Shown: in pieces, positions 38,442-62,309 of the stretch
Layout of the letters: each line of letters begins with the position of its first letter
How positions within the stretch are numbered: the stretch's first letter is position 1
Assembly: GCA_963827165.1 (NCBI GenBank)
Contig: CAWGZR010000003.1
Span: forward strand, 96,001 to 160,000
From: Candidatus Bathyarchaeota archaeon
Lineage (GTDB): Archaea > Thermoproteota > Bathyarchaeia > Bathyarchaeales > Bathycorpusculaceae
DNA: 64,000 nt
Direction of reading: 5' to 3'
The notes under the pieces: model-generated
The model's input: only the letters and a program-made list of their open reading frames with translations
Databases searched by the model: none
Told to the model about the DNA's origin: nothing
Translations under genes and position numbers: made by a program

Positions 38442-38482
38442 GGGTTCAAATCCCAGCTTGGTTCATAATTAGATTCGAACCC
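38442..38482. repeat. 41-bp mini-unit bounded by inverted T-arm-like ends
   Basis: gggttcaaatc ... gattcgaaccc. Confidence 0.6.
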
Positions 38483-38513
38483 AATATAGTATACTTCCTC
38501 CAAATTGTTTTTG

Positions 38514-41500
38514 GGGTTCAAATCCTCGGCATGCTTCGTCAGACGCGAATTTTTAACGTTAATATTATCCTTCTTTTTTTTGTCGCCAATTACGATAACC
38601 AACATGCATAGCAGTTATTTAGTGACACTAGCGACGAGCGGAGAACAAACAGAATGCCTGATGTGGCTGCTGATTGTCACCGTTACGATCACGGAATGAT
38701 GTTTATTAGCTGCTTGCTTTTAAAATTGAATTGGAGAAGGTAGAAGTGAATGTTATTATTGATAAATGTTGGAAGATTTTGAGGAGCGAGTTCTCCGAGT
38801 ATTATTTCGCGATTTTTTCTAGAAAGGAAGGACCTCCAATCTGCATTATCTTGTGTTTGTTAACAATTTTGTCTTACACGTTATTGCACGCGTAAGCTAT
38901 CTTAAAGTATTGTTTAGAAAAATTGAAAAATAAAAAAAGAGAGTTGTTTGTTGACTTTTGCTTTTTCTATTCTAACGGCGTTTTGGTTGAGCGCTTTCTT
39001 CTTCGCACTATCCCGATGATGACTGCTCCAAGCAAGATCATAGCTGCTGCAATGGTAACGTATTGACCCATTGTTGCAAACATTGTTGTTGGAGCTGAGG
39101 TTGGATTGGTAGTTGGTCTAAGTGTAGCTGTTGGTGTAGGCGGAATTGTGGGAGTTGGTATTGTTGTTGGATTTGGCAGGGTAATTGAGGTTTGGCTTTG
39201 TGCCCAAGTGGCTATTGGTATTGGAATATATGGGTTTGATTCGGTTGTGAACAAGATTTCTATTTGGTGGGTGCTGAAATGAGTAGTGAACGCTAGGTAA
39301 AAATTGTCAGAGTCTTGGGTGAATGATTGGTTTTCAGCCACTATGCCGTCGATGTAAACAACTGGGTTTGTTCCAAAGGGTATGGCGATTTTTGGAATGG
39401 TTAGGTTGCAGAATCCCTCTGTTCCGTTGGGTCCTGTTAGTGTAAAATCTACTGTGGTTATTCTTGTGTCTTGATTTGGGGTAATGGTCATGTTTGAGAA
39501 CTGTTCTGTAGTTACGTTTCCGCCTATTTCTACGGGGTAGGTTTCGCATGTATTAGTATCTGTTGCAGTTATTGTGTTGGTTGTAAAGTTAGCAGAGATA
39601 GAGTGATCATCCTGAACGTTTGAGAAAGTGTACGTTGATGCAACTGTGACTGCGGAACCATCGACTACTAAAGAGGAAATATGGTAACCCACTTGCGGTG
39701 TTATAACGAAAACTTGACTTCCACCATAGGAAACTGTTGAAGTTGATGGGGCAACAGTTCCATGATCACCTTGAGTAACCGTGATTGTGTAGGTGTTAAT
39801 CGCGAAAGTCACATCGATAGTGGTAGCTCCCGTAATGGTCGGGTTATAGCTTGAAACAGAACCTAAATGAATAGTTCCATTAACCACAACATCTGCTACA
39901 TTATAGCCTACGACAGGAGTGAAAGTGAAGTTAAGCGGAGTATTCCAATCAACAGTCTGATTAGCCAAATTAGATGCACCATTAGCGCTCACTGTAACCG
40001 TTATTGGGTAGTTATTTACGACAAAAGTAGGTGTTAACGTGTGGTTTGCATACATTGTTAACTCTAGAGGGTTGTTATTGCCTGATGGGTTGTTGTCAAC
40101 TGTCCAGAATGCGAGATTGTAGCCATCTGCTGGTGTAGCAACAACTTCTGCGGTATCGCCGTAGGTGTATGATTGGTTACCGTTCGTGGGATTGGTTGTT
40201 CCGCCCGATGCTGAGTTGATAGTTAGTTGGAAGGTAGTTGGGATCACGTATGCTTTTATGAGGTGATTTTGGTTCATAGTGACTGTGACAGAACTGTTTG
40301 TTCCTGTTACGCCGTCGAGGATCCAATGGTCAAGTGTTAATTGAGGAGGTAACCCTAAGTAATCAGCTGAAAGGTTCTTAATTGTACCTGAAGTGTAAGT
40401 CCATGATTGGTTATTCTGGAAAATATTGTTTAAGTAAATTTCAGCTGTTAAGTTGTATGTGTTAATCGCAAAAGTTGCACTAATGGATCCGTTATCTGAA
40501 ATTTCATTGAACTGGTATTCTTGACCTGCAGGGTTAGTGACAGTTACTGGTTCATCATTGACAGTTATGTTGGCGATGTGGTAGCCAGAATTTGGTGTTA
40601 TTGTGAAAATTGGTGTATCACCATAATTAACAGTGGATGTACCGGGTGAAATTTGGCCGTTATCACTCTGAGTAACCGTGACCGTGTAAATCGAAGGTGA
40701 AGTTAATCTTATCACCGAAATAGAACTGCTTTCATAACCTCCGATTGAAGTATAGACGTATTCACCGTTGGGTGTTACTGCTAAACCGCCAGATCCTCCA
40801 AAAAAATAATACATGCCGCCAAGGGATATTGTTTCTGTTACGGTGTTTGTAGCTGTGCTAATTACTGAAAACGAATTCCCGATATCCATACTGCTGTACG
40901 TAGCGTAGATGGATTCGCCGTTGGGTGCAACTGCAACGCTGCCAGTTCCGCCTTCTTCTGGATCTACCATCCCTCCGAGGATTATTGTTTGTGTTACTGA
41001 GTTTGTGGTTGTGCTAATTACTGAAACCAAATTCCCGTTCTGCCAATCGATACTTGTGACATAGACTGATTCGCCGTTGGGTGCAACTGCTATTCCACCA
41101 GTTCCACCTTCTGAAAAATCAGGGTAGCCGTTAAGGGTTATTGTTGCTGTTACTGTGTTTGTGGCTGTGCTTATTACTAAAACCGAAGTATCGTCGTAGC
41201 TCTCTTTGACGTAGATGGAACTCCCGTCAGGTGCCATTGCAACATCTTCAGGATTATTTAAGCCCGTTATTGTTGCTGTTACTGTGTTTGTGGCTGTGCT
41301 AATTACTGAAACTGTGTTGCCGCCGTAATTTGTAACGTAGACTACTTGGCCGTTAGGTGATACGACCACGCCTTCAGGATAGTTAAAACCAGTTATCGTT
41401 GCAGTTACCGTATTTGTAGCCGTGGTAATAACTGAAACAGTATTGTCGGAATAATTAGGAATGTAAACGTATTCACCATTAGGTGTTATAGCTGCGCCTA

Positions 41501-42174
41501 TAGGTTGGTTTCCAACAGTTATTGTCGTCACCACGGTATTTGTTAACGTGTTTATGACCGAGACTGTGCCATCGAATCTGTTGGTAGAGTAGACGTATTG
41601 ACCGTTGGGTGTTACTGCTATGCCGCCGACACCGTTTCCAACATTTATGGTTGTTGTTAATGTGGATGCTTGAGCTAATTGAGGTAATAATGCTAATGCA
41701 AATGATATCAAGAGAATAGCGGAAAAGATGCCTACAACTCTTATCGTTTTTGTTGTTTTATGCTGTTTATTGTGAATTCCTTGTTCAGTACTTGCTTTTT
41801 TCAGAAATTTATAATTCTTCATGGTTTGACTCAAACCTTTACGATAATGCTATTTTCTTGAGTCTTATTATATAAAATATGAGAAGCAGTAATTCATGTT
41901 TTAAGATTTTTTTAATGTTTCTATTGTTATTGATTCATATTAAAGACAAATTTCGAAAATCTAATAGATCCAAGAACTAAAAGATGATTTTACCAGGTAA
42001 ATTGTTGCTATTATCCCTCGTCAGCGCCTGTCAGACTCCTGAAGATTAGGGACTAATACTGGGTAGGGGTTAAGCCCGGTACGACTCATCCTCGTCTCAA
42101 AGAAGTTTGTTTAAGTGATATTTTCAGGGTGATTCAAATTAATTTTACTCTTTTGGTCATTGTGGTTTGAACCC
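38514..42174. mobile_element. Putative non-autonomous unit bounded by inverted T-arm-like ends, carrying the YVTN surface-protein gene
   Basis: gggttcaaatcc at 38514 and ggtttgaaccc at 42164-42174. Confidence 0.5.
38967..41834 (-). CDS. Cell-surface protein: YVTN beta-propeller, divergent InlB-B/Ig-like repeats, P/T linker, C-terminal TM anchor
   Basis: Repeated PNG..VYVTN..NTVSVISTATNTVTATI; TP..GYHI..V.VDG repeats; C-terminal hydrophobic helix plus RRRKR. Confidence 0.92.
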   Translation of the reverse strand: MSQTMKNYKFLKKASTEQGIHNKQHKTTKTIRVVGIFSAILLISFALALLPQLAQASTLTTTINVGNGVGGIAVTPNGQYVYSTNRFDGTVSVINTLTNTVVTTITVGNQPIGAAITPNGEYVYIPNYSDNTVSVITTATNTVTATITGFNYPEGVVVSPNGQVVYVTNYGGNTVSVISTATNTVTATITGLNNPEDVAMAPDGSSIYVKESYDDTSVLVISTATNTVTATITLNGYPDFSEGGTGGIAVAPNGESVYVTSIDWQNGNLVSVISTTTNSVTQTIILGGMVDPEEGGTGSVAVAPNGESIYATYSSMDIGNSFSVISTATNTVTETISLGGMYYFFGGSGGLAVTPNGEYVYTSIGGYESSSISVIRLTSPSIYTVTVTQSDNGQISPGTSTVNYGDTPIFTITPNSGYHIANITVNDEPVTVTNPAGQEYQFNEISDNGSISATFAINTYNLTAEIYLNNIFQNNQSWTYTSGTIKNLSADYLGLPPQLTLDHWILDGVTGTNSSVTVTMNQNHLIKAYVIPTTFQLTINSASGGTTNPTNGNQSYTYGDTAEVVATPADGYNLAFWTVDNNPSGNNNPLELTMYANHTLTPTFVVNNYPITVTVSANGASNLANQTVDWNTPLNFTFTPVVGYNVADVVVNGTIHLGSVSSYNPTITGATTIDVTFAINTYTITVTQGDHGTVAPSTSTVSYGGSQVFVITPQVGYHISSLVVDGSAVTVASTYTFSNVQDDHSISANFTTNTITATDTNTCETYPVEIGGNVTTEQFSNMTITPNQDTRITTVDFTLTGPNGTEGFCNLTIPKIAIPFGTNPVVYIDGIVAENQSFTQDSDNFYLAFTTHFSTHQIEILFTTESNPYIPIPIATWAQSQTSITLPNPTTIPTPTIPPTPTATLRPTTNPTSAPTTMFATMGQYVTIAAAMILLGAVIIGIVRRRKRSTKTPLE

Positions 42175-42178
42175 AATT

Positions 42179-43822
42179 CAGACTGTGTTAAAACTCAGCT
42201 AAATCCTAAGTGCATTTAGCATTAGAGCTATTGTCTGCAAGTCTTTTTTACTTGTTTTCTCTTTTTTACTTCTTCATCAAATTTATTATCGTCCTAACTC
42301 CAAAAATGTTGATGACTCGTCTCATGTTGTAAGCAAGCATCGTAAACCCAACCTCTCCCTTAACGTTCCTCAGACCCTTCAAGAGCACGTAACCCTGATT
42401 GAAAGCACGCTTAATCGTTCCAAACGGATGCTCAACTATCTGCCTCCTCAAACGAAGCTTCTGTCTGCCTTCACAACTCTGCAACCTTACTCTGAGACGT
42501 TCAACTGCGCCATAATACTTGGACCTAACCATAGTCCTTCCACGTTTGTTCCTCGTACACTTGCTCCTAAAAGTGCAGACAGCACAACCAACCGTCCTGT
42601 AAACCCTGCCTCGCAGGGGGTCATTTCTATACACGCACTTACAAAATGTCAGATCTTTGCCTGTGGGACAAACATACAGGTCTTTAGAAGCATTGTAAAC
42701 GAATCGGTCGGAATAGAACTCAGGCTCGGGAACTCCAATGCTTTTGTATGGGCTAAAAACATTAGGAATGGGCATAAACACCGTTACGCCATTCCCTTCA
42801 CAGTCAGCGATGTCTTTCTCAACGTAGAAGCCCTTATCGCTCAAAACCTCAAGCGTATCCACACCCAAAGTGTCCTTTGCCGCTAACGCATCCTTTGTGA
42901 GTTGATGATGGTCAGTTGAGTTATTTATCACGTCATAATCAACGATTAAGTGTTGTTTTGCATCAACCGACGTTTGAATGTTATAGCCGACTTCAAGCCG
43001 TTGACTATCCACTCTCATCAAGCGGCTATCCGGATCTACAAGAGAAACCTCGTTTTGGCCTGTGGCCTTCATCTGCTCCTGAATATGCTCGTACTGCCGC
43101 TTCTTGTCTTCCAACTGGCTTATTTTTTCCTTGAGCTCATCAGTCTTGACTGTTTCATCTTCGTCTGAATCGTCCGCATCATTGTGGTCCAATTCATTGA
43201 GATATTGTGCTATCTTTTCCTCTGTCTGCTTGAGTCTTTGAGCAACTGTTTTCTCATTGAGGTTGTTGCTTTTGGAATTTACTGCTTTGAATTTGGTGCC
43301 ATCAATCGCCACTAGTTGAGCTCCATAAAGATTTAGGCTTCTGCAGAGATACACAAATTCTTTGAATACTCCTTTGATGCAGTCGTCGTTGTCTTTCCTG
43401 AAGTCAGCGATGGTTTTATGGTCTGGAGTCAGCTTCTTCATGAGCCACATGACCTCAACGTTTCGGTGGCACTCTTTCTCGAGTTTTCTGCTGGATCTTA
43501 CTTGGTTGAGGTAACCGTAAACGTAGAGTTTTAGTAGGTCTGAGGGGTTGTAGGAAGGTCGTCCAGTGTCAGATAGTACCGAGTGTTTGAAACCAAGCTT
43601 TTCCAGGTTGAGGCTTCCTACAAAAACGTCGATGAATCTGACGGGGTTTTCTTTGTCAACATACTGGTCGATCGTGTCTGGGAAGAGTACCGTTTGGCTT
43701 CTGTAAGTGCCTATTACGTGTTCGCTCATGGCTTTTCAGCTCTTGCTGTTGTTTTAAAAGCCGTCTAGATTTAAGGCTAACGGTAAATAGCTATCAAAGA
43801 AAGAGACTTTTCACACAGTCTG
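42179..43822 (-). mobile_element. IS1182 family element (intact)
   Basis: TIR cagactgtgt / acacagtctg; 4-bp TSD AATT at 42175-42178 and 43823-43826. Confidence 0.92.
42266..43729 (-). CDS. IS1182 family transposase
   Basis: GRPSY.P..LLKLY.YGY, SSRKLE, PDHKTIADFR, AIDGTK, DKGF, VEHPFGTIK. Confidence 0.95.
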   Translation of the reverse strand: MSEHVIGTYRSQTVLFPDTIDQYVDKENPVRFIDVFVGSLNLEKLGFKHSVLSDTGRPSYNPSDLLKLYVYGYLNQVRSSRKLEKECHRNVEVMWLMKKLTPDHKTIADFRKDNDDCIKGVFKEFVYLCRSLNLYGAQLVAIDGTKFKAVNSKSNNLNEKTVAQRLKQTEEKIAQYLNELDHNDADDSDEDETVKTDELKEKISQLEDKKRQYEHIQEQMKATGQNEVSLVDPDSRLMRVDSQRLEVGYNIQTSVDAKQHLIVDYDVINNSTDHHQLTKDALAAKDTLGVDTLEVLSDKGFYVEKDIADCEGNGVTVFMPIPNVFSPYKSIGVPEPEFYSDRFVYNASKDLYVCPTGKDLTFCKCVYRNDPLRGRVYRTVGCAVCTFRSKCTRNKRGRTMVRSKYYGAVERLRVRLQSCEGRQKLRLRRQIVEHPFGTIKRAFNQGYVLLKGLRNVKGEVGFTMLAYNMRRVINIFGVRTIINLMKK

Positions 43823-43826
43823 AATT

Positions 43827-43850
43827 GGGTTCAAATCCCGCCCGGTCCAC
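43827..43850 (+). repeat. tRNA-Ala-like 3' fragment (att-like)
   Basis: gggttcaaatcccgcccggtccac; near-identical copy at 62285-62309 ending in CCA. Confidence 0.75.
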
Positions 43851-43891
43851 TCCCAACAGGGTTCAGGTCACAACAATACTTATTAGCCCAC

Positions 43892-45214
43892 ATGGCTGTT
43901 TCTTTAATTATGTCTGCTGCCCCGCAGAAGAATAAGTATCTCTACTTGTTTGAAGACCCCGACGTTAAGCGCTGGTATAATAACCTGGCAAGGGGGTCGC
44001 AAGGCACAGCTGACGTGTACCTAAGACGGATAGGTTCATTCTGTAAGAACCTTGATACAAACCCCAAGAAACTTGCCGCTTTAAGCGAACTTGAAATTTA
44101 CAATCTAATGCTTGATCACGTTTCTTCAATGGAAAAATCAGGATACACTGGAAGCTATATAGAATCAGTGATTAAATGTGTCAAATCATGGCTCGCTCAC
44201 AATGGAAAAGAAATCAGACGAAAAATCAAGATAAAGGATGCAAGAGAGTCGCCTTCACTTAAAAATGAGAGAGTTCCTACAAAGGAAGAGCTAAAAAGAG
44301 TATTCCTTTCGGGCGACAAGAAAGCGAGAGTAGCAAGCGTCCTAGTTGCTCATTCTGGGCTAAGGCTAGAGGTTCTAGGAAACTACACGGGAAAAGACGG
44401 ACTGACAATTGGTGACATGCCAGAAATTAAAATCCAGAACGGCATTGTTACCTTCGAGCGAAAACCCACCGTTATTGTTGTACGCAGAGAATTGAGTAAA
44501 GCAGGACATCAATACTTCACGTTTCTTAGCGAGGAAGGGTGCGGATACCTTCAAGATTACTTGGAAGAACGAATAAGAGAGGGAGAGGGACTATCACCAG
44601 AGTCTCCTGTGATAACGCCCAAGCTTAAAATGAAGCCATTCATACGTTCCACCAACATAGGCGACACAATTCGAGTGCCCCTGAGGGCTGCTGGCTTTGA
44701 TTGGCGGCCGTATGTCTTAAGGTGCTATTTTGATACACAATTAATGTTGGCCGAATCAAAAGGTTTAGTGCTTAGGGATTATCGGGGTTTTTGGATGGGG
44801 CATAAAGGAGATATTGAAAACCGCTACACTACTAACAAGCAGAGGTTGCCCGAGTCTGTTGTTGAGGATATGCGGGCGGCTTATGCGAGAAGCGAAGAGT
44901 TTTTGCAAACCAAAATGAGCGAAGAAACCACAGAGGAGAAGCTAAAGGGCATTTTTAGGCGACAATTTTTGTCGGTCGCCGGTTTTGGTAAAGGCGAGAT
45001 AGAAGACATGGATGTGATCTCTTTTAGTGAAGAGGAGCTGCAGAACCTCGTCAGAAAGAAACTACTGGGAGCTCCAACATCTGACAACTTCAAGCAGAAA
45101 GTCGTAACCATAGACGAAGCCGATAGCTATTTGTCCAAAGGCTGGGAATATGTTGCAAAACTTTCAAATAATAAAGTTGTTGTCAAAATTAGCTCTGAAT
45201 CAAAAAAAAACTGA
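43892..45214 (+). CDS. Tyrosine recombinase / site-specific integrase
   Basis: SAM-like N-terminal domain; HSGLR, ELSK, PYVLR, MGHKG and RY catalytic-type motifs. Confidence 0.9.
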   Translation: MAVSLIMSAAPQKNKYLYLFEDPDVKRWYNNLARGSQGTADVYLRRIGSFCKNLDTNPKKLAALSELEIYNLMLDHVSSMEKSGYTGSYIESVIKCVKSWLAHNGKEIRRKIKIKDARESPSLKNERVPTKEELKRVFLSGDKKARVASVLVAHSGLRLEVLGNYTGKDGLTIGDMPEIKIQNGIVTFERKPTVIVVRRELSKAGHQYFTFLSEEGCGYLQDYLEERIREGEGLSPESPVITPKLKMKPFIRSTNIGDTIRVPLRAAGFDWRPYVLRCYFDTQLMLAESKGLVLRDYRGFWMGHKGDIENRYTTNKQRLPESVVEDMRAAYARSEEFLQTKMSEETTEEKLKGIFRRQFLSVAGFGKGEIEDMDVISFSEEELQNLVRKKLLGAPTSDNFKQKVVTIDEADSYLSKGWEYVAKLSNNKVVVKISSESKKN

Positions 45215-45243
45215 GTGAAAAGGAGAAGCTCGCACGCCGCGTG

Positions 45244-45627
45244 CTAAAAGAGAACGAAACAGGTACGACTACGAAACCCTGATACTAAACCAAGCATGCC
45301 TGATCCGAGTTCATTCTGCCACATGGTTAGACCTGTTTTCTTGGTCGGGTTGGGTTTTGTGAAACCGTTCAGATCGTAAACATATTCAACCGATTTAGTC
45401 CATGTTTTAGTCCTTTTCACTTTTAGGCAAATGCGAAGTTCATTTCTGTCAAAGGATTTTTTGAAATCGATGGTTAAATCGCCGGCCATGAATTGCAGCC
45501 AGCTATTATCGGTTTTTGAAAGTGCACGCAACAATGTCTCCCATTCAGGCGTTTTGAATCCTAGCAACTCTCTGATTTCCTCGATCGCGGCGTACCGGTT
45601 AGTGGCGAGCCATCTGACAGATTCCAA
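45244..45627 (-). CDS. Hypothetical protein
   Basis: 127-aa ORF immediately downstream of 45634-46125, same strand. Confidence 0.5.
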   Translation of the reverse strand: MESVRWLATNRYAAIEEIRELLGFKTPEWETLLRALSKTDNSWLQFMAGDLTIDFKKSFDRNELRICLKVKRTKTWTKSVEYVYDLNGFTKPNPTKKTGLTMWQNELGSGMLGLVSGFRSRTCFVLF

Positions 45628-48030: not shown

Positions 48031-48085
48031 ATATCATCGCAAGGTTTTTTGCTACAACTAAAGCAAGACGTTGGCCTAAGTCGCT

Positions 48086-48156: not shown

Positions 48157-48157
48157 T

Positions 48158-53340: not shown

Positions 53341-53807
53341 ACCACATGACCTCAACGTTTCGATGGCACTCACGTTCCAGCTTTCTGCTTGAACGAACCT
53401 GATTCAGGTATCCGAAACATAGAGTTTTAGAAGATCCGCGGGGTCGTATGAGGGTCTTCCAACCTCAGCCGGTACAGATGCTTGAAGCCGAGTTTCTCCA
53501 AGTTGAGGCTGTCAGCGAAGGCGCCAATGAACCTGATTGGGTTTTCTTTATCCACATATTCTTCGAGCGTTTCTGGGAAGAGGGCTTTCTGGTTTCTGTT
53601 GAGGTCTTCTACATGTTCGCTCATGGCTCATCAGTTGCTTTAAAGCTCAGTCTAGATTTAAGGTTAACGGTAAATAGCAAGCAAAGAAAGAGACTTTTCA
53701 CACAATCTCAACAACAATGCGCGTTTTCTTGACCTAATAAATGCTTTAGGGCGGTTACACCTAATGGTGAAAAGTTCAGCTCGGAAAAAAATAGCAAATC
53801 AACACAT

Positions 53808-54110: not shown

Positions 54111-54144
54111 AGATATTTTAGGTTTTTGGTCTAGTTTTTTTTGT

Positions 54145-55072: not shown

Positions 55073-55334
55073 TTGTTTTTTTGTCTTTTCCCAAGTTTTT
55101 ATAGATATAGCTTTTCTACAGGAACTTAGTGACGAAGCCTCAATACACATTCCTGTTTCTCGCGCATTTGAAAAAGTGGATCGCCATGAAAATCCTAGTT
55201 CGTCCGCTAAATTCGTCCATCTTTGGAATTAATCTTAATAATCGATGTGCTACTTTCATAAAAAAAGACGGGATGTAAAGGCTTTTTTCTGGATAGACCT
55301 CCGATAAGCCATATAATATCGGAGGATACGTGAA

Positions 55335-56323
55335 ATGAGTGGAGTGGTAGTCGGATTAGATGTTCACCTGAAGAATACTCAGGTAACAGTCATGAAATTG
55401 AATGGGGAAGTAGTGAAAACAGAAAGAGTTAGAACCAACAAAGCTGACCTTCGAAGGTCATTGGAGTCGGTTCCTAAAGGAAGCAAAGTAGCATTGGAAT
55501 CTGTTGGTTTCTGTTGGCCTTGGATTGATTTTCTACATCAGCTTGAGTATGAGCCGCTGCTTGCTAACCCAGTGAAGGTAAAGTATCGAGCGGAAGATGT
55601 TAAAACAGATCGAGTAGATAGTAAGTTGTTGGCTGACTTAACGAGGATGAATTGGTTGCCAACGTGTTATGTTCCACCTGAAGAGTTAAGATGGCTACGA
55701 AACCTGCTCAGACACCGAGCTTACCGGACCAAACTTTGTACAGCTATGAAGAATAGAACCAAGTCCGAATTTAGAAAACGCGATATTGACCTGGAGACTA
55801 ATTTGGGTACGTTGAAAGGAAGAAAGCAGCTTCTAATCTTGGCATTTTTGAAGTGAATCAGAACGTGGAGCTGCTGGATCTGATGGACAGGCAAACTAAG
55901 GAGATTGAAGCCATGCTTAGAAGGAAATATGGGCAGGTGAAGCCTGTTTTGCTGCTTATGACTATTCCCGGGATTGGTTTTCTGTCTGCATTAACTTTGT
56001 ACGCTGAGATCTGCGACATTAAACGGTTTAGTAATCCTGAGAAGCTTGCGCATTATGCGGGTTTGGTGCCTCGTGTTCATCAATCAGGTGAGCATGCGTT
56101 TACGGGTAAGGAAACGAAGGGTGATGCTTGGTTGAAGTGGATTTTGACTGAAGCTTCTTGGTCGCATGTTCATTTTTGTCCTGAGGGTCATCTTGCTCAG
56201 GTGTTTAAGGATGCTCGGCGGAGGAAGGGGAATAGCAAGGATGCGATTAAGATTGTGGCTCGTAAATTGGTGAATGTGGTTTGGGCTGTTTGGGCGTATG
56301 AGAGAGAGTTCATGGTAAAGTAA
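55335..56323 (+). CDS. IS110 family DEDD recombinase (frameshift near 55825)
   Basis: VGLDVH, VALES, KTDRVDS..LA; TIPGIG, YAGLVP...QSG, ARKL. Confidence 0.9.
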
Positions 56324-56460
56324 GACAAGCAGCTAAGGAGATCTCCTGCCTTTTTCTGCGGCTTGACCGCTTAAAAAAGAATGGGGTGTTTCTTTGCTGT
56401 TGGCTGAAGCCGTATTGCGATTTGGTTCGCTGATAAGAGAATGTTGTCTGAAATACAGTT
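56324..56460 (+). ncRNA. Candidate IS110 bridge/seek RNA
   Basis: Hairpins gcgg-cttga-ccgc and gcga-tttggt-tcgc; ATAAGAGAA is identical to the right junction sequence. Confidence 0.5.
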
Positions 56461-56604
56461 GTAGAAAAGGATTTAAGAAAAAAAGGAGGTTGAGGTAGTA
56501 GAGGTCTGTTCGGTTAGGGCTTTCGTCGTCTTCTTACATAAGAGAAAAAAGAATGGTTCTTAGGATGCTATAATGTCCAAATTAGCAAAAGCATCATTGA
56601 ATCA

Positions 56605-58572
56605 TTACCAATACAGGTATTGTGCAGTGATTGTCGTGTCAGAAGTTATGGGAATAGATGCTCCATCCGCGTAGTAAGCGCCTCCATCTTGCAGGTCAAG
56701 AAACTGCAGGTAACCGCCAGAGCCAGGGACTGCAATAGTGTGATATCCCAATGATATCGGTATAGACAATGGTGTGTATCCAACCAAGTTACCGTCAATA
56801 CCGACAGGCACACTGCCCTGCCCGTATTGATCCGTAGCGTACATCGTCAATGTGTAAGTCGGGATATAATTATAATACGCCGTTATCGTCATGGCCTCCA
56901 AGGTTGTTATGTCTGCGGGATTTCCATACCAATCAGTGCCGTCGTAGAAGCCGATGAAAGCGCCTCCACCGTCTGCGTCTGGCGCTTGAAATACGTGATC
57001 GAGATCCGACAAATCAAAAACGTTACCGCTTGAAACCCAGTTGCCATCTATCGAAATCGGAATGCCATTAACATAGTTACCACTAGACTCATCAAATACG
57101 AGCACCGTCACTTCGGGATCAGCGCCTATTGCAACCGCGTCTACATACAGATTCACAGGATTGTTGCCTGGATCGTAGCCTGCTATGGAGATCCAATTGA
57201 AATCGCCCATATATTGGCCTACAGATATCCAATAATCGCTATTTTGTGTGATTGTTATGCTGTTTCCAATTTGAACCCAATGCTGGTCATCATTAGATAC
57301 ATAAACGTAGAGATCGCTGGAGTACCCTGGTGCTGAAGAACCGCGGATATAGATATTGCCGCCAGAAGGAGCGTTCATCTGTCCCGTTATATATCCCCCG
57401 CTGCCATAAACCGACCCGTATATTTCCGCGTCATCACCGTCCTTTGTACCTACGATATTGTATGGGTTGTTCACAACGCCATTTCCATAAGGACCCCACT
57501 GATTTGAAACAACACTTGACACGTATGTTTGACTGTGCATTTCCCAGTAAATGTCGTATTGATTGCCCTGTGTATAACAGCAATCTGGTCTTACTCCCGT
57601 TGGAGGATGCCCGTCATCTCCAAAAAGAATAGAGCCGCCATAGTGTTCAAAGGGATATGAGAATTCTAAATACGTTTGGAAGAATGGCACATTTGTAATT
57701 TGGGTAGTGCTAGGTCGCATGAGTCCTTCGACGCAACTCGCCGGAGAGTAGGCAGAGGAATCACATACGATAAAGTTAGTTGTCGGAACATTAATTGTGA
57801 CTGGTGCACAATGGTTGTCATATGTTGAGCTTATGTCTTCAAGAGTAAAAGTGACAGTATTGCTTGACGATGAATACAATGAAAATTGGTATTGGTCATA
57901 TGGAATATAAGTTGCATTAATTGATGGCCAGTAGTAATATCCGCTTGGAGAGTCTTGACAATAAAGAGTCCAAGTAGGTAAATCGTCTTCTGCGTCGAAG
58001 ATCACAACAAATTGGATCCATCGGTAGTTATTAGTCGTTCCCCAAGCAATGTTCAGGGGTTCATAGAACAGTTTGTCATCATATGATCCTGTAGTCATGC
58101 CTTGGATCGTATTTGGGACAGCTATGAACGTTCCACTGATCGTTAGTGGAGGGGCGTCGTATGGCAAAATTGACGGTTGCTGCCAAAAATCAGTCAAATG
58201 CCAATATTGTCGGGGGTCGTCTAAAGGAGAAAAACCGTTAGCTGAGACATTTGAATTGGTTGAAGGATCTGGTGTATTTTGCATTTGTCCTTGACTTAGG
58301 TTTAAGACCCTTTGAGGCAGAACCGTTACATTTGTTTCTGTATGACCTGTTATTATCGAGCCCGGTCCAAGATTAGCCGGGCCGCCGGTGGTGATCGGAG
58401 TCACATTATTAGTGAAGGCATTTCTCAAGGAGATCGTCGTATTGATGTTTGAATTTGTTGAATTACTTTCAGCCTTTGCTTGTGGTACGTACTTTGTGCA
58501 AGCGATAGAAGTAAGTAGAATAATGAGGATAATTGATGCTACTGCGAAAACTTTTATAGATTTTTTTATCAT
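56605..58572 (-). CDS. Large secreted multidomain beta-rich protein with C-terminal PEGA-like repeats
   Basis: Signal peptide ending AKA; S/T/N-rich N-terminal region; VGIDG..VG.TP...GYHTI repeat. Confidence 0.75.
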   Translation of the reverse strand: MIKKSIKVFAVASIILIILLTSIACTKYVPQAKAESNSTNSNINTTISLRNAFTNNVTPITTGGPANLGPGSIITGHTETNVTVLPQRVLNLSQGQMQNTPDPSTNSNVSANGFSPLDDPRQYWHLTDFWQQPSILPYDAPPLTISGTFIAVPNTIQGMTTGSYDDKLFYEPLNIAWGTTNNYRWIQFVVIFDAEDDLPTWTLYCQDSPSGYYYWPSINATYIPYDQYQFSLYSSSSNTVTFTLEDISSTYDNHCAPVTINVPTTNFIVCDSSAYSPASCVEGLMRPSTTQITNVPFFQTYLEFSYPFEHYGGSILFGDDGHPPTGVRPDCCYTQGNQYDIYWEMHSQTYVSSVVSNQWGPYGNGVVNNPYNIVGTKDGDDAEIYGSVYGSGGYITGQMNAPSGGNIYIRGSSAPGYSSDLYVYVSNDDQHWVQIGNSITITQNSDYWISVGQYMGDFNWISIAGYDPGNNPVNLYVDAVAIGADPEVTVLVFDESSGNYVNGIPISIDGNWVSSGNVFDLSDLDHVFQAPDADGGGAFIGFYDGTDWYGNPADITTLEAMTITAYYNYIPTYTLTMYATDQYGQGSVPVGIDGNLVGYTPLSIPISLGYHTIAVPGSGGYLQFLDLQDGGAYYADGASIPITSDTTITAQYLYW

Positions 58573-58799
58573 TTTCCTATATCTCCTTTGTTAATTTGGT
58601 TTTTATGACTGTCCTCTTTCTGCCCTTCCCTTAGGGCTAGGCGGTGACACGCCCCCAAGACAATTCAGCCTTGGCTTTTAATGGGGATGACTATAAACTG
58701 CCTGCCTTTAAGGCAGAGAAGTCACCTTTAGCATCTCCTCAGCGGTATTTCCTTATATTATTTCTTATGTATTCCTATTCCTATTAGGATTAAGAATAC

Positions 58800-60145
58800 C
58801 AGTAGATGCGAATAATTAGCGCAATTTCGCTTCAGGGGCCTTTTGATTTGGTTGAATAGGCGCGCTGAAGACTTTGGCTGCGCATTATTTTAAAGAGCTA
58901 ACAGTTGAGTGGCGCCCTCAAGCCTGTAGAAACAGACGGCAAGACAAAACATAAACAAAAAACCTTCAGAAAAAGAAAACGTCACCTATCATTCCGCCTT
59001 AAACTTCACACTACACCTCAACGGTGCCAGTTATCCAAACGAATCTGACAGTCTGCATAAAACAGCAGGCGAAGACCACAAGCAAGAAAACTTCAGCCTC
59101 ACCACGATAACATGATCCTTTGCCCGAACGTTTAGAAGAACCCACACGTTATACAGCAAAACAGCCAAAACAAAATACCAGACCCTAACAGAGTAGTCAT
59201 CGCAAGTCGTCTTAGCAAAAAACTGGCCAATCATCCTATAACTGGTCTCAATCCCCCAACGCTTCTTATACAGCTTCAAAATACGCTTTGGCCGACCCGG
59301 CAGATTGGTGCCCAAAAAATACTGCATACCTTTACAGTCAACAGCCTCAACCACGTCAACCCAGACGCCTTTAGTGCAGTACGTGAAGCGTTTTTGGTAG
59401 CGTTTCCACCTCCAACGCCTACGGAGCTTAACTGTGTCACGCAAAGGAATGATGAAGCCAATGTTGCGGTCGATAAGCGCCTGCAGAAGCTTGACATCTT
59501 GGAAACCGTTGTCAAAGGCCACGTAAGAAACTGATTCAATGTTCTGCAATACTTGGTCAAGCAGCAAAAGAACTATTTGCCAGAGGTTATCTCTTGATAG
59601 CAGCGGAACGACTGCAAGCACAAGACGTTTGCCGGGCGTGATGATGCTGACGGTAAGGTAGCAGTAGGCATAGCTTGTTCCACGTTCAGGCTTGGTGCCT
59701 ACTACTCCTTCCTTACTGTGTTTTCCGTAGAATCGCACATCATGCCAATCAAACGCTACAGCGACGTTAGCTGTAACTAGTCGTTTTTTGGCAAGAATTG
59801 TTACGCATTTTGCAATCTGAGCTCTGGCGACTTGGAGGGTGTCGTTGATGGTTTGCGTTTTAAGGTAGGCTAGGACGGTTTCAGAGGTTGGTGTGCTTTT
59901 TCTTTTGGCTTTTTGTTTTCGGAGTGCGTTTGTGAGTCCTTCAGCGTAGCAGTTCATGAGGGCTATTCTGAGCATTACATCAATGATGTCGGTTTTTTGG
60001 TACCATGCGTGCTGCTTCATCTGGAAAGTGAAGATCGGCGAAACAAGTTCTTGAACAAAGCTCTTGAACTTCAAGAAGGCATTATCCAAATTTGTCCCAG
60101 GAAGATATCAGGCAAAAAGCTAGCCATAAGTATTCGCATCTACTG
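58800..60145 (-). mobile_element. ISH3 (IS4-like) family element
   Basis: Perfect TIR cagtagatgcgaata; TSD ATAC. Confidence 0.9.
59031..60089 (-). CDS. ISH3 family DDE transposase
   Basis: VAFDWH...FYG, FDNGF, YKKRWGIETSYR, LYNVW. Confidence 0.9.
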   Translation of the reverse strand: MDNAFLKFKSFVQELVSPIFTFQMKQHAWYQKTDIIDVMLRIALMNCYAEGLTNALRKQKAKRKSTPTSETVLAYLKTQTINDTLQVARAQIAKCVTILAKKRLVTANVAVAFDWHDVRFYGKHSKEGVVGTKPERGTSYAYCYLTVSIITPGKRLVLAVVPLLSRDNLWQIVLLLLDQVLQNIESVSYVAFDNGFQDVKLLQALIDRNIGFIIPLRDTVKLRRRWRWKRYQKRFTYCTKGVWVDVVEAVDCKGMQYFLGTNLPGRPKRILKLYKKRWGIETSYRMIGQFFAKTTCDDYSVRVWYFVLAVLLYNVWVLLNVRAKDHVIVVRLKFSCLWSSPAVLCRLSDSFG

Positions 60146-60289
60146 ATACAGCTAAACTCCAATGCAATCGCATTATGATATTTTGTATAGGTGTTAAACA
60201 GTTCTTGGGTTGGGCTACATTTCAGATATTCCTTTATACTATCTATTGTTTCTGCGTATGCTTGATAGTATTCCATAGAAGGTGTTAGC

Positions 60290-60610
60290 TTGAATGTGAG
60301 CTTTAAACCAAGTGTCCAAGAACGAATGCTAAAAGCCTTCTTGGACTTGACAGTCCTGCAAATGCTAAAACAGCAATCCATGACCGCTTACCAGATTGAC
60401 AATTTAATTATGGAAAAGTACCACAGCAAAATAAGCCCAAGCGTAATCTATGCGAAGTTAGCGATTATGGAAAGACAGGCGTTAATAGAATGTCATCCAC
60501 ATCATGGAAAAACATATAGCCTTGCCGAAAAAGGCCAAGATCTTTTAGCTAACAAACATGAGATAATTAAAGAAATTCACAACTGTACAATAATTTTATT
60601 TGAAAGCTAA
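60290..60610 (+). CDS. PadR family transcriptional regulator
   Basis: K.FLDL.VL..L....M..Y.I, ISPSVIY..L..MER, YSL.EKG. Confidence 0.85.
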   Translation: MNVSFKPSVQERMLKAFLDLTVLQMLKQQSMTAYQIDNLIMEKYHSKISPSVIYAKLAIMERQALIECHPHHGKTYSLAEKGQDLLANKHEIIKEIHNCTIILFES

Positions 60611-60674
60611 CGAAGAAATGAAAGTAACTCTAATTTTCTGCCGTCTCTTTTTGATTGGCATTGGCCAAAATTTT

Positions 60675-61992
60675 CGTGCCGTTCCTTTGTAGGTTAGAAT
60701 TATAGGCTTACTCTCGCCTCTGTTGTGCTGTAAAAGCGAAACAGCTACGCGGAGGTGAAAGTAAGCCTGGAATACAATGATACACCTTTTAATTTAGACT
60801 TAGCTGAAATCATCCGGAACATCAGCATCCAGTCAAAGCTGCAACTTACCCGGCAAATCGAGGAATACCAACAACAAATCATAGCTTATCAGTGTGGTCC
60901 AAAGTACTCTCGTAATCATTCATTCAAGAGAGCAGGCGCTTACACAAAAGAGTTAACGACGCCGCTTGGAACTATTCGCTTCAAAGCCCAAAAAGTCAGA
61001 AGAAGACCGACAACACTGTCACTTGCCCTATCATTGAATGTTTAGACGTTAAACGACGTAAATACTCAACAGACCTAAGGATTAAACTGGCTGAATATGC
61101 GTCAAAAATGAGTTACCAAGACGCAAGCTTAGAATTTGAAACAGCCACAGGCATACGTGTTCCAAAAAGAACCATACACCGTTTCGTCCATGAAATAGCA
61201 CCAAGGCTGCTGAAAGCAAACAACCCACAAAATCAGCCTGAAGTTAAACTGACAAAGCTAATGGGAGACTCAACAGAAGTCCGAGCATTAGCAAGCCGAG
61301 AAATGAACATGGTCCACGTCCTCATATCACCCGACAACGGACAACTCCTCCATCTAGACGTTAACTGCGAATGGCCAAACTGCGAGACAGACACGCTCAT
61401 ATCAGACAAAGAACCTGCCCTAACAAACGCTGTAAACGCCAACCATCTTCAGCTCTGCATTCTACACGCAATTAAGTACTTGCTATTCACTTTGTGGGGA
61501 GAAGGCATGAGCAAAGATGACCGAGCAAAAGTCAAAGTTGCAGTAAAAGAAGCACTCCTCACTCTGGTAAACTCCACTAAGAAGCATCTGCAAGACAAAG
61601 ACTACGATAGTCTGCAAGAGAGAATCAACAAAACTCTAAAGATACTTAACGAAGTTGCCAGGCAACTACAAGAAGACGGCTACAGTAGAGCGGGAGAATT
61701 TCTTAAAAAGAACAGCCGATTCGTCGTTACCTTTGCGCAACTTGCTCTGCAGGGCATCAAAATACCCTACACCACCAACAGGATCGAGCGTCTCATGGGA
61801 GAAGTCTCTAAACGCTGCAAGCACAAATGGATGCACTGGTCAACACAAGGTCTCAAAGACATCCTCACAATAGTGCTCGTCAGGTATACAAACAAACAGC
61901 TCTACGAAGACTTCAAAAAAACATATATCCACAACACAATCATTCACTAGAACAGCATACAGCACAACTCTAACCTACAACTGCACAGCACC
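60675..61992 (+). mobile_element. ISH6/IS256-like element
   Basis: Imperfect TIR of about 24 bp with core tgtaggttaga; 8-bp TSD AAAATTTT. Confidence 0.85.
60755..61950 (+). CDS. ISH6/IS256-like transposase (frameshift near 61005)
   Basis: TPLGTI, MSY, LISD.E, QLCILHA, TTNRIERLMGEVSKR...WS..G. Confidence 0.85.
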
Positions 61993-62264
61993 AAAATTTT
62001 TGATGCTTTTCAGTCAATATTTAAAGTTAAGGATTTGCATTTGCAAATGACCCAAAAGTTAAAGCCAATGAAAAATCTTTTATCTCAAAAACAAGCGCAT
62101 AACCTTTGATCATGTCGCTTCAAAGCCTAAGATTGGTTCTGATGATTAGGTTAAACCAGAAAAAACTCTTTCTCTATACGGGGCGCAGATTTTGATAGGT
62201 CTTGGTAGATTAGTAAATATATACGAAAATAGTCTGATTTAGAAAATTTTTGACAAATTGAGAG

Positions 62265-62309
62265 TTGTGGTTTGAACCCTGCACGGTTCAGATCCCGCCC
62301 GGTCCACCA
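62265..62309 (+). repeat. Palindromic att-like junction plus tRNA-Ala-like 3' end
   Basis: ttgtggtttgaacc-ctgcac-ggttcagatcccgcccggtccacca; same arms as the reconstructed 42160-42178/43827-43850 site. Confidence 0.8.

What the first reader, a model, noticed from the sequence alone, without database searches (positions are those of the whole stretch)
38442..62309. Candidate tyrosine-recombinase mobile system whose ends mimic the tRNA T-arm
Seen: the motif GGGTTCRAATCC occurs in inward-facing pairs around discrete units. These are a 41-bp unit (38442-38482), a 3.66-kb unit with only a YVTN surface gene (38514-42174), and a 6.3-kb unit with perfect 13-bp IRs that encodes the tyrosine recombinase 65 bp from its end (43827-50138). 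A further end pair lies at 62265-62309. Ends at 43827 and 62285 continue as a tRNA-Ala-like 3' end, yet I found no complete tRNA in the window. Known: many tyrosine integrases target tRNA genes and restore their 3' ends. Inference: here the conserved T-arm itself serves as the recombinase-binding terminal repeat, giving autonomous, non-autonomous and minimal units that stack head to tail and move surface-protein cargo.
Basis: partly seen in the sequence, partly recalled or inferred. Interest (0 to 1): 0.85.

Follow-up and report, generated by a model that had tools for sequence, protein, structure and literature searches.

The report
Insertion sequences in tRNA-like integration scars
The paired tRNA-like motifs are not the ends of a new mobile system: they are leftovers of an ordinary tRNA-targeting integrase island, and two copies of a common insertion sequence have landed exactly inside them.

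Summary
The motif positions are real and far above chance (4 exact GGGTTCRAATCC, 0.02 expected), and the window has no complete tRNA. The proposed "units" are mis-paired. Copy A is 42179-43822. Copy D is 50143-53709 and carries a 1.93-kb group II intron. The "inward-facing" motifs are the outer flanks of these copies.

ORF 43892-45214 is a divergent tyrosine integrase. In 45 of 70 related loci it lies just downstream of an intact tRNA gene. In the window, only the last 23 nt of the genome's tRNA-Ala(CGC) precede it. A 22/23 direct repeat lies 18.4 kb downstream. This fits a classical, decayed, IS-riddled tRNA-integrating island, not inverted-repeat transposition.

Genome-wide, neighbouring orphan T-arm motifs are tandem (8), not inward (1).

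The IS family inserts, with a 4-bp duplication, into the centre of T-arm-like palindromes: 28 of 47 flanks across 14 genomes against 11 of 3000 random sites. The integrase family also keeps a T-arm-like box 9 nt after the tRNA end.

The parts are of known kinds. The IS target choice is a modest novelty.

The parts
35981..36115 (+). tRNA-3'-end-like fragment (35981-36006), followed by a stretch that is 95-100% identical in three other genomes of the genus. Probably the end of another integrated element.
   Evidence: Sequence read. Matches to query positions 1686-1816 in G049, G034 and G054.
38439..38482 (+). It resembles the 'tRNA end + post-tRNA box' layout of an integrase-side att site whose integrase is gone.
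   Evidence: The upstream GAAAGTACATATT.GCCCC matches the junction before the integrase in L038. The reading is an inference.
38514..38525 (+). Orphan T-arm-like motif with no recognisable acceptor continuation.
   Evidence: A similar CAATTGTTTTTGGGTTCAAATCC lies beside IS copy C on the same contig.
38967..41834 (-).
   Evidence: Pfam Flg_new_2, Lactonase and YNCE beta-propeller. Internal tandem repeats.
42164..42178 (+). Right-end box GGTTTGAACCC (42164-42174) and the left copy of the 4-bp target duplication AATT (42175-42178).
   Evidence: The 15 nt TTGTGGTTTGAACCC are identical to 62265-62279.
42179..43822 (-). IS1182-family insertion sequence, copy A (1644 bp). Transposase 42266-43729 (487 aa). 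Terminal inverted repeats CAGACTGTGT.AAAA.TC.
   Evidence: NCBIfam NF033551, 399 bits against a cut-off of 270. Pfam DUF772 + DDE_Tnp_1_6. Seven copies in the genome. Ends and duplication.
43823..43849 (+). Right copy of the AATT duplication (43823-43826) and the last 23 nt of tRNA-Ala(CGC) (43827-43849): T-arm from G51 on, acceptor 3' strand and discriminator.
   Evidence: Identical to the 3' end of the intact tRNA-Ala(CGC) on C6. Same sequence and same following spacer as behind the intact tRNA-Ala in L002.
43859..43870 (+). Post-tRNA box GGGTTCAGGTCA, 9 nt after the discriminator. Conserved T-arm-like box of this integrase family. Candidate recombinase or regulator site next to the integrase promoter.
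   Evidence: Scores at least 10 of 12 in 41 of 60 loci, at offset 8-10 in 40 of them. 20 of 1420 random 50-nt segments reach that score.
43892..45214 (+). Tyrosine integrase, 440 aa, of the classical type (its gene is not split by integration).
46175..47176 (+). IS91-family (Y2, rolling-circle) transposase.
   Evidence: NF033538, 253 bits against a cut-off of 125. Pfam Y2_Tnp and Zn_Tnp_IS91.
50126..50142 (-). T-arm-like half-site GGGTTCAAATCCC (read on the minus strand) and AAAA, abutting the left end of IS copy D. The ~85 nt outside it recur beside IS copy F and at two other places in the genome.
50143..53709 (-). IS1182-family insertion sequence, copy D. About 72-76% identical to copy A. 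Its transposase gene is broken and interrupted by the intron. No matching 4-bp duplication (AAAA against AACA).
51411..53341 (-). Group II intron (1931 bp, GUGCG...AC) inside the transposase gene of copy D, on the same strand. The reverse transcriptase/maturase frame is split in two.
   Evidence: Rfam RF02003 (54.7 bits) and RF00029 (49.1 bits). Pfam RVT_1 and GIIM in two ORFs. Ends read. One contig of run X1 joins 51409 to 53341.
54145..62000 (.). IS-dense tail of the island. It holds an rve-type IS (54145-55072), a split IS110-type transposase (55335-56323), a 655-aa ORF of no known family (56605-58572), a DDE_Tnp_1 IS (59031-60381) and a Mutator/IS256-type remnant (60667-62000).
   Evidence: Pfam. 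Inverted repeats I2, I4, I7.
62265..62309 (+). Unoccupied junction: TTGTGGTTTGAACCC (box 62269-62279), spacer TGCAC, then the tRNA-Ala(CGC) 3' fragment with CCA (62285-62309). Candidate attR of the island.
   Evidence: 22 of 23 identical to 43828-43850 (D11). Ends in CCA like the chromosomal tRNA gene. Only a weak hairpin.

Best explanation
The region from about 36 to 62.3 kb is a decayed mosaic of integrated elements. It contains no new kind of transposon.

(1) ORF 43892-45214 is a classical tyrosine integrase of a large, mainly Bathyarchaeia family. The family integrates its element into the 3' part of tRNA genes. The element supplies a replacement tRNA 3' end directly upstream of the integrase gene. 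The displaced host 3' end remains at the far side as a direct repeat. Here both copies of the tRNA-Ala(CGC) 3' end are present (43827-43849 and 62285-62309, 18.4 kb apart). Each is preceded by the same right-end box, TTGTGGTTTGAACCC, not by the 5' part of a tRNA. I infer a tandem array whose leftmost part, with the intact tRNA, has been lost or lies elsewhere.

(2) Two diverged copies of one IS1182-family insertion sequence have inserted here. Copy A sits precisely in the 4-bp spacer between the right-end box and the tRNA fragment, and duplicated AATT. The box is a near-complement of the T-arm, so the IS is flanked by an inverted pair of T-arm-like motifs. The right flank of copy A and the left flank of copy D then look like the ends of a 6.3-kb unit.

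(3) This IS family chooses such sites. It inserts, with a 4-bp duplication, into the centre of imperfect palindromes GGnTYYRRACCC-N4-GGGTTCRRAnCC. One arm often runs on as a tRNA 3' end. The likely cue is the palindrome or its hairpin form, as reported for the family member IS1272.

Shown: the IS copies, their ends, the duplications, the flank statistics, the integrase family and its tRNA neighbourhood, and the direct repeats. Inferred: that 43.8-62.3 kb was one element, that the array was tandem, and that the palindromes are att junctions.
For: IS.
- Two copies lie in the window, shown by repeat families offset by 7,965 and 9,896 nt.
- The transposase fits the IS1182 equivalog model at 2.5e-119.
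- The genome holds seven copies, 72-86% identical to copy A.
- 14 of 61 genomes of the genus hold the IS.
- 12 of the 18 copies with both ends found have an identical 4-bp duplication.
- 28 of 47 distinct flanks score at least 9 of 12 against GGGTTCRRAWCC directly after the duplication. Random genome positions do so in 11 of 3000 cases.
- 17 of 47 flanks continue within 2 mismatches of a real tRNA 3' end, against 47 of 1500 controls. At 1 mismatch or fewer the figures are 11 of 47 against 5 of 1500.
- Unoccupied look-alike sites exist at 62265-62309, at L014:21132-21175 (a 9-bp hairpin with a 4-nt loop, z -3.45) and at C4:123442.
- IS1272, of the IS1182 family, targets inverted-repeat structures with 4-6 bp spacers (PMC5678879, abstract and section 22).

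Integrase.
- 2292 relatives were found among 8000 scored candidates. Several are named site-specific integrase or carry PF00589.
- 11 of 22 aligned members hit PF00589.
- R158, K203, Y274-x-x-R277, H304 and Y312 are invariant in the alignment.
- The fold matches XerA, IntI and Cre.
- A same-strand tRNA ends 150 nt or less upstream in 45 of 70 related loci. These cover many isoacceptors.
- L002, whose integrase is 85% identical, has an intact tRNA-Ala(CGC) followed by the same spacer as in the window.
- In L035, L038 and L060 only a fragment precedes the integrase, and the intact tRNA lies 3.6-8.7 kb upstream. These are tandem arrays.

Orientation. 29 orphan T-arm motifs occur in the genome, against 3-7 in shuffled genomes. 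Of the 10 neighbouring pairs within 15 kb, 8 are tandem, 1 is inward and 1 is outward.

Known background. Archaeal integrases mostly target tRNA genes, and tandem integration is documented (PMC8371274, passages found).
Against: - No intact tRNA stands at either end of the proposed 18.4-kb element, so it does not meet the textbook attL/attR picture.
- The only intact tRNA-Ala(CGC) is on another contig and looks unoccupied.
- Nothing between the repeats except the integrase module is shared with related loci. The right end is therefore defined only by the repeat and the 15-nt box.
- Among 71 loci, a downstream repeat within reach was found only in the window. One relative checked genome-wide (L027) has its repeat 64 kb away behind a different kind of right end. 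Another (L006) has none.
- The link between IS targets and this integrase family is weak. An integrase relative lies within 1.5 kb of only 1 of 30 IS loci, and that one is the window itself.
- The unoccupied C4 site lies 13.3 kb downstream of a tRNA-Arg gene, but none of the 10 ORFs scanned between them is an integrase.
- Copy D has no matching duplication and only one T-arm-like flank.
- 19 of 47 flanks are not T-arm-like.
Confidence: 0.78

Rival explanations
1. A new tyrosine-recombinase mobile system uses inward-facing T-arm mimics as terminal repeats. It has autonomous (6.3 kb), non-autonomous (3.66 kb) and minimal (41 bp) units that stack head to tail.
For: - T-arm-like motifs do occur in both orientations at the edges of segments.
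- A right-end box that is a near-complement of the T-arm precedes both tRNA-Ala fragments.
- The integrase family keeps a T-arm-like box after the tRNA.
- Short 'T-arm, about 20 nt, second T-arm-like box' stretches recur in the genome.
Against: - The inverted pairs at 42164/43827 and at 50126 are IS flanks with target duplications.
- The integrase occurs once in the genome.
- In 45 of 70 relatives it sits behind an intact tRNA, as classical integrases do.
- No second copy of any proposed unit was found.
- Genome-wide, neighbouring motifs are tandem in 8 of 10 pairs.
- The 41-bp stretch does not fold better than shuffles (z -1.3).
Confidence: 0.05
2. The T-arm-like palindromes are an independent family of short hairpin repeats, or chance-favoured sequences next to tRNA fragments. 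They are unrelated to integrase att sites. The IS simply prefers the sequence ACCC-N4-GGGT with symmetric arms.
For: - An integrase relative is near only 1 of 30 IS loci.
- Several targets have no tRNA-like arm at all: 30 of 47 flanks are more than 2 mismatches from any tRNA 3' end.
- The unoccupied C4 site is not next to an integrase.
- Pseudo-T-arms such as GGGTCTGAGACCC recur in several genomes.
Against: - Unoccupied palindromes of this kind are very rare in the genome. A scan of 4.5 Mb (genome plus loci) gave only a handful with both arms at 10 of 12 or better, and most of those are the tRNA-end/post-tRNA-box pairs. They are therefore not an abundant repeat family.
- In the window, one arm is exactly the integrase-linked tRNA-Ala end.
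- 17 of 47 flanks are tRNA-3'-end-like, against 3% of controls.
Confidence: 0.14
3. The 43.8-50.1 kb segment is the passenger of a composite transposon formed by the two directly oriented IS copies.
For: Two copies of the same IS family, in the same orientation, bracket the integrase segment.
Against: - The copies are only about 72-76% identical.
- Copy D has a broken, intron-interrupted transposase.
- The outer flanks carry no common duplication: AATT left of copy A, AACA right of copy D.
- Copy A has its own intact AATT duplication, which shows that it inserted alone.
Confidence: 0.03

Closest known systems
Classical tRNA-targeting integrative elements with tyrosine integrases (genomic islands as catalogued by Islander; archaeal 'classical', pNOB8-type integrases)
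   Same: - The integrase gene lies directly beside the 3' end of a tRNA gene.
- A tRNA 3' segment is repeated in direct orientation at the far end.
- The integrase gene stays whole.
- Many different tRNA genes are used across the family.
- Tandem arrays occur.
   Different: - In the window no intact tRNA remains at either junction.
- The element is mostly IS debris.
- The family has a conserved T-arm-like box 9 nt after the tRNA end. In this element a near-complementary box also lies 4-5 nt before the fragment. I did not find either described (searches; review passages).
IS1182 family insertion sequences, especially IS1272 of Staphylococcus
   Same: - Transposase family: the equivalog model is met.
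- About 1.6 kb long, with terminal inverted repeats.
- Preference for inverted-repeat (potential stem-loop) targets with a 4-6 bp spacer (PMC5678879).
   Different: - IS1272 is reported to replace the target inverted repeat and to make no duplication.
- Here both arms stay, and the 4-bp spacer is duplicated.
- The arms have a specific T-arm-like consensus and often continue as a tRNA 3' end.
- The host is archaeal.
IS elements that home to repeated palindromes (IS1397 and ISKpn1 in REP/BIME sequences).
   Same: Insertion into the loop or centre of a defined family of palindromes.
   Different: Another IS family (IS3), bacterial hosts, and abundant REP targets. Here the targets are rare and tRNA-derived.
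SSV-type ('suicidal') archaeal integrases
   Same: Archaeal, tRNA-targeting, tyrosine recombinase fold.
   Different: In SSV-type elements the att site lies inside the integrase gene, which is split on integration. Here the fragment lies upstream of an intact ORF.

Membership tests
Tyrosine recombinase / phage integrase superfamily (PF00589) | Sequence match to the catalytic-domain model | tested here: inconclusive
   The window protein itself has no Pfam hit at E<=0.01. 11 of 22 close relatives (63-85% identical) hit PF00589, best 3.3e-08, and 4 of 22 hit the SAM-like N-terminal domain.
Tyrosine recombinase / phage integrase superfamily (PF00589) | Catalytic R..K..H-x-x-R..H/W..Y residues | tested here: met
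   R158, K203, Y274-x-x-R277, H304 and Y312 are invariant in 22 sequences, with Tyr in place of the first His. I assigned them to catalytic roles by reading the motifs, not from a structure superposition.
Tyrosine recombinase / phage integrase superfamily (PF00589) | Two-domain recombinase fold | tested here: met
   The AlphaFold model has mean pLDDT 67.9, and the catalytic region is poorly modelled. The top Foldseek PDB hits are XerA (E 3e-05), IntI, Cre and Tn1549 Int, but TM-scores are only 0.24-0.39.
Classical tRNA-integrating genomic island | Integrase gene adjacent to the tRNA 3' end | tested here: met
   In the window the fragment ends 42 nt before the ATG. In relatives a tRNA lies 150 nt or less upstream in 45 of 70 loci.
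Classical tRNA-integrating genomic island | Intact tRNA at one end and a displaced 3' fragment in direct orientation at the other | tested here: not met
   The direct repeat is present (22 of 23, 18.4 kb apart). Both copies are fragments, and there is no tRNA in the window. It can be filed only as a decayed or tandem derivative.
Classical tRNA-integrating genomic island | Excision or empty site in relatives or reads | tested here: inconclusive
   The flanks are not syntenic with relatives. The contig-only read data show no such joint, but cover is thin.
SSV-type suicidal integrase | att site inside the integrase ORF, gene split on integration | tested here: not met
   The fragment lies upstream of an intact 440-aa ORF.
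IS1182 family | Transposase matches the family model above its cut-off | tested here: met
   NF033551, 399.3 bits against a cut-off of 270, covering 9-474 of 487 aa.
IS1182 family | Terminal inverted repeats, multiple copies and target duplication | tested here: met
   Terminal repeats of about 18 nt. Seven copies in the genome and 33 examined across 14 genomes. An identical 4-bp duplication in 12 of 18 complete copies.
Group II intron | Ribozyme domains and an intron-encoded reverse transcriptase/maturase | tested here: met
   RF02003 and RF00029 score above their gathering cut-offs. RVT_1 and GIIM are present, but the frame is split into two ORFs. The ends are GUGCG...AC.
Composite transposon | Near-identical flanking IS copies and one duplication around the whole | tested here: not met
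   The copies are about 72-76% identical. The outer flanks are AATT and AACA.
   The integrase is single-copy. No second copy of the units was found. 1 inward pair among 10 neighbouring pairs.

The most novel reading that the evidence does not exclude
Two unrelated mobile agents of Bathyarchaeia both read T-arm-like DNA.

First, a widespread integrase family has an attachment region that carries extra T-arm-like boxes. One lies exactly 9 nt after the tRNA end. In this element a near-complementary one lies 4-5 nt before the fragment. If the integrase binds these boxes, that would explain how the family hops among many different tRNA genes.

Second, an IS1182-family element homes to the 4-bp centre of the palindrome that such a box forms with the T-arm. 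It thereby splits att junctions. It may lock integrated elements in place, or it may ride on them.
Probability: 0.35. Interest if true: 0.6.

Novelty: new variant of a known kind. Interest (0 to 1): 0.36.

Why it matters
As a candidate new mobile system, the finding does not hold. It is worth recording so that similar inverted T-arm pairs in archaeal genomes are first checked for an insertion sequence lying between them.

Two things are worth keeping.

(a) A clear, statistically strong target preference of an archaeal IS1182-family element for T-arm-like palindromes next to tRNA fragments. This would be a compact natural example of structure- or sequence-guided DDE transposition. It is also a possible mechanism that disables excision of integrated elements.

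(b) A conserved T-arm-like box at fixed spacing in the attachment region of a very large, uncharacterised archaeal integrase family. This gives a concrete, testable hypothesis for how such integrases recognise many tRNA genes.

Tried and rejected
- Split or intron-containing tRNA as an explanation of the fragments: rejected. ARAGORN with introns allowed and the Rfam tRNA model on the whole genome place no tRNA in the window. The sequences left of each fragment are not tRNA 5' parts.

- Extended IS ends, with the T-arm as part of the IS: rejected. The 4 nt between the IS end and the motif are direct repeats, not inverted ones, in 12 of 18 copies. The flanks also differ between copies.

- Empty site by synteny: led nowhere. 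The TFIIB gene right of the island has paralogues, and the best relatives match only the gene. In 10 of the 11 relatives' loci fetched it lies beside tRNA-Gln. The left flank, 34300-38400, is conserved only over the cation-efflux gene and a 70-128-nt stretch.

- attR in relatives. Downstream direct repeats within 10 kb were found in none of the 70 related loci. Two genome-wide pattern searches gave one repeat 64 kb away with another kind of right end (L027) and none (L006).

- Free or viral forms of the element: no relative of the integrase in viral contigs, with the single protein or with the alignment.

- Reads. Only Logan contigs were on offer, with at most 0.22 of the words, and no RNA holder was listed. 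Laying four runs on 42600-62500 gave thin, patchy cover. There was no joint for 50138 to 43827 or for 43828 to 62285. With this cover, that is no evidence either way. A 244-nt skip at 43834 in X2 has a side of 28 and was disregarded.

- The C4 locus as a model attL/attR for the copy B/F target: 10 ORFs were scanned and none is an integrase. Left open.

- The acceptor test was faulty, because empty strings were in the reference set. It was redone.

- Supplements of papers were not consulted. Supplementary tables of PMC8371274 may list this integrase family.

- Claims that something is not in print rest only on the listings and on the passages.

Full report
**Observation**

The motif GGGTTCRAATCC occurs exactly at 38442(+), 38514(+), 43827(+) and 50127(-). 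That is 4 matches against 0.02 expected, and none of 100 shuffles reaches 4. One-mismatch copies lie at 38471(-) and 62285(+). GGTTTGAACCC lies at 42164-42174 and 62269-62279.

The window has no tRNA gene by ARAGORN. It has none by Rfam at the gathering threshold, and none in an E-value scan of 37-64 kb.

Repeat families D1, D2, D5, D8-D10, D12 and D14 pair 42155-43824 with 50119-53711. Their offsets jump from 7,965 to 9,896 nt. Inverted repeats I1 and I3 join the ends of these copies.

**The insertion sequence**

ORF 42266-43729 (-) has Pfam domains DUF772, DDE_Tnp_1_6 and DDE_Tnp_1. It meets the NCBIfam equivalog model for IS1182-family transposases, with 399 bits against a cut-off of 270.

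The genome (G000; the window is C3:96001-160000) has seven copies, 72-86% identical to copy A, plus one fragment. Aligning their ends shows terminal inverted repeats CAGACTGTGT.AAAA.TC.
- Copy A is 42179-43822 (1644 bp) and is flanked by AATT on both sides.
- Copy D is 50143-53709.

Its extra 1931 bp (51411-53341, minus strand) are a group II intron.
- Rfam domains D1-D4 and D5/6 score above their gathering cut-offs.
- The ends are GUGCG...AC.
- RVT_1 and maturase domains are spread over two ORFs.
- One metagenome contig joins 51409 to 53341.

The T-arm-like motifs at 42164-42174, 43827-43838 and 50126-50138 lie immediately outside the IS ends. The "perfect 13-bp inverted repeats of a 6.3-kb unit" are the right flank of copy A and the left flank of copy D. 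The 35-nt repeat I1 is the IS terminus, plus 4 nt, plus the flank.

**The integrase**

ORF 43892-45214 has no Pfam, NCBIfam or PDB sequence hit of its own. It belongs to a very large family: 2292 proteins at E<=1e-3 among 8000 scored candidates. These are mostly from Bathyarchaeia, and some are named site-specific integrase or carry PF00589.
- In an alignment of 22 members, R158, K203, Y274-x-x-R277, H304 and Y312 are invariant.
- 11 of 22 members hit PF00589, and 4 of 22 hit the SAM-like domain.
- A profile search of PDB sequences finds archaeal XerA only weakly (E 0.3).
- A model of moderate quality (pLDDT 67.9) finds XerA, integron integrase, Cre and Tn1549 integrase first, with E from 3e-05 and low TM-scores.

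I accept it as a divergent tyrosine recombinase. The genome has one copy, plus a 25%-identical relative on C10.

**How the integrase family sits in genomes**

I fetched 80 related loci. Ten lack 160 nt upstream and were dropped. Of the other 70, 45 have an ARAGORN tRNA on the same strand ending 150 nt or less before the integrase start. These cover Ala, Val, Leu, Arg, Met, Pro, Gly, Ser, Trp, Ile, Lys, Asn and others. Most of the rest show a tRNA or a tRNA 3' end by eye.

L002, whose integrase is 85% identical, has an intact tRNA-Ala(CGC). It is followed by CTCCCAACAGGGTTCAGGTC, as in the window.

The window keeps only GGGTTCAAATCCCGCCCGGTCCA (43827-43849). These are the last 23 nt of the genome's tRNA-Ala(CGC), whose intact gene is on contig C6.

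A 22 of 23 direct repeat lies at 62285-62307 and runs on as CCA, like the chromosomal gene. Both fragments are preceded by TTGTGGTTTGAACCC and a 4-5-nt spacer. At the first one, the IS sits in that spacer.

In L035, L038 and L060 the integrase is likewise preceded by a fragment only, and the intact tRNA lies 3.6-8.7 kb upstream. These are tandem arrays, a known situation (PMC8371274, passages).

I therefore read 43827-62309 as one integrase element in a former tandem array. I hold this part at about 0.6, for these reasons:
- No intact tRNA is left.
- Nothing but the integrase module is shared with relatives.
- The interior is largely IS material: IS91, an rve-type IS, IS110, DDE_Tnp_1 and a Mutator-type remnant.

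Further same-strand tRNA-like fragments lie at 35981 and 38442, with a T-arm-like motif at 38514. The junction at 38420-38470 resembles the one before the integrase of L038. These suggest older layers of integration.

**A conserved box**

In 60 of 71 sequences (70 loci and the window) my simple T-arm finder located the T-arm. In 41 of these 60, a 12-mer scoring at least 10 of 12 against GGGTTCRRAWCC follows. It lies at offset 8-10 nt after the discriminator in 40 of the 41. The odd one is L002, where the finder took the anticodon arm. Of 1420 random 50-nt segments from the same loci, 20 reach that score.

In the window the box is 43859-43870. It lies just before the TATA-like sequence, so it may be a promoter or operator element, a recombinase site, or both. 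The right-end box GGTTTGAACCC is its near-complement. This is the grain of truth in "ends mimic the T-arm".

**The IS homes to T-arm-like palindromes**

The IS occurs in 14 of 61 genomes of the genus that were searched. From 33 copies I recovered 48 flanks, of which 47 are distinct. 12 of the 18 copies with both ends found have an identical 4-bp duplication.

Reading outward from the duplication:
- Positions 1-3 are G in 34-38 of 47 flanks.
- Position 11 is C in 39 of 47.
- 28 of 47 flanks score at least 9 of 12 against the T-arm-like consensus, against 11 of 3000 random positions.
- 17 of 47 continue within 2 mismatches of the last 11 nt of a real tRNA (88 distinct ends), against 47 of 1500 controls. 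At 1 mismatch or fewer the figures are 11 of 47 against 5 of 1500.

Among copies with an intact duplication, five have a box on one side and a tRNA-like end on the other: L098, L099, L103, L120 and copy B. L106 and L121 have tRNA-like or pseudo-T-arm ends on both sides and unequal 4-mers, as expected after recombination between IS copies.

Unoccupied sites of this design are rare in 4.5 Mb scanned. Examples:
- 62265-62309, which forms only a weak hairpin (z -0.9).
- L014:21132-21175, which forms a 9-bp stem with a 4-nt loop (z -3.45).
- C4:123442.

IS1272, a member of the same family, is reported to target inverted repeats with 4-6-bp spacers, although it replaces them and makes no duplication (PMC5678879, abstract and section 22).

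Whether the palindromes are att junctions of integrated elements remains open.
- An integrase relative lies within 1.5 kb of only 1 of 30 IS loci.
- The C4 site lies 13.3 kb downstream of a tRNA-Arg gene, but the 10 ORFs scanned between them encode nitrogenase-like and cofactor enzymes, not an integrase.

Outside tRNA genes the genome has 29 GGTTCRARTCC motifs, against 3-7 in five shuffled genomes. They are therefore enriched. Of the 10 neighbouring pairs within 15 kb, 8 are tandem, 1 is inward (the window's 43828/50127 pair) and 1 is outward. Enrichment with tandem orientation is what att remnants give. It is not what terminal inverted repeats give.

No second copy of the proposed units was found. 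The read data were too thin to speak on junctions.

**Verdict**

The new-mobile-system interpretation is not supported in its novel part. The parts are of known kinds: a classical tRNA-targeting integrase island in decay, IS1182-family insertion sequences, and a group II intron.

Two things are new. One is the IS family's preference for T-arm-like palindromes beside tRNA fragments. The other is the conserved T-arm-like box of the integrase family. Both are shown statistically here and are mechanistically untested.

Noticed in passing
window 51411-53341 (-): A group II intron sits inside the transposase gene of IS copy D, on the coding strand. Its reverse-transcriptase/maturase frame is split into two ORFs. 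One metagenome contig (run X1) has the intron-less join 51409 to 53341.
   Followed up: partly
window 35981-36115: A tRNA-3'-end-like fragment is followed by a stretch that is 95-100% identical over 69-128 nt in three other genomes of the genus (G049, G034, G054). This is far more conserved than the surrounding genes. It is probably the end of a recently spread element.
   Followed up: partly
window 36278-37285 (-): A ParE-type toxin ORF (110 aa) lies next to a SocA/Panacea-domain ORF (224 aa). This is a likely toxin-antitoxin pair at the left edge of the island.
   Followed up: no
G000 C10:407451, C5:333122, C5:948227-959423, C13:47311, C12:55005, C3:295859 and others: A second family of orphan tRNA 3' ends is preceded, about 12 nt upstream, by a palindrome GGCGATATCGCC (with variants) and further upstream by GCTGCG. 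The attR of the element in the genome of L027 has the same design (L093). It is probably the end of another integrase family's elements.
   Followed up: no
G000 C10:90263-90338 and C10:~96000-96056: tRNA-Arg(TCT) and a direct repeat of about 45 nt, from its anticodon loop to its 3' end, lie 5.7 kb apart. This looks like a textbook small integrated element.
   Followed up: no
G000 C4:123300-136900 (L138): A nitrogenase-like cluster (NifH-type protein, two Oxidored_nitro proteins, radical SAM, homocitrate-synthase-like, CobW and CobQ-like) lies between tRNA-Arg(TCG) and a tRNA-Arg-like 3' fragment. The box GTTCCGCCCCC follows the tRNA and precedes the fragment. None of the 10 ORFs scanned is an integrase.
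   Followed up: partly
window 59262-60535: One contig of run X1 skips 1272 nt here, inside or around the DDE_Tnp_1 IS (59031-60381). This suggests a presence/absence variant in the population.
   Followed up: no
window 62641-63582 (-): A TFIIB/TFB paralogue lies just right of the island. The genome has at least three further copies. In 10 of the 11 relatives' loci fetched, the best matches lie next to tRNA-Gln(TTG), as does the genome's own copy on C11. The window's copy may therefore be an extra, possibly island-borne, paralogue.
   Followed up: partly
window 29930-31498 (+): A further transposase ORF (ISL3/Mutator-like Pfam hits) lies left of the island, between host genes.
   Followed up: no
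L113 (G062:C8): The left flank of one IS copy is the end of another copy of the same IS. This is a nested or back-to-back insertion.
   Followed up: no
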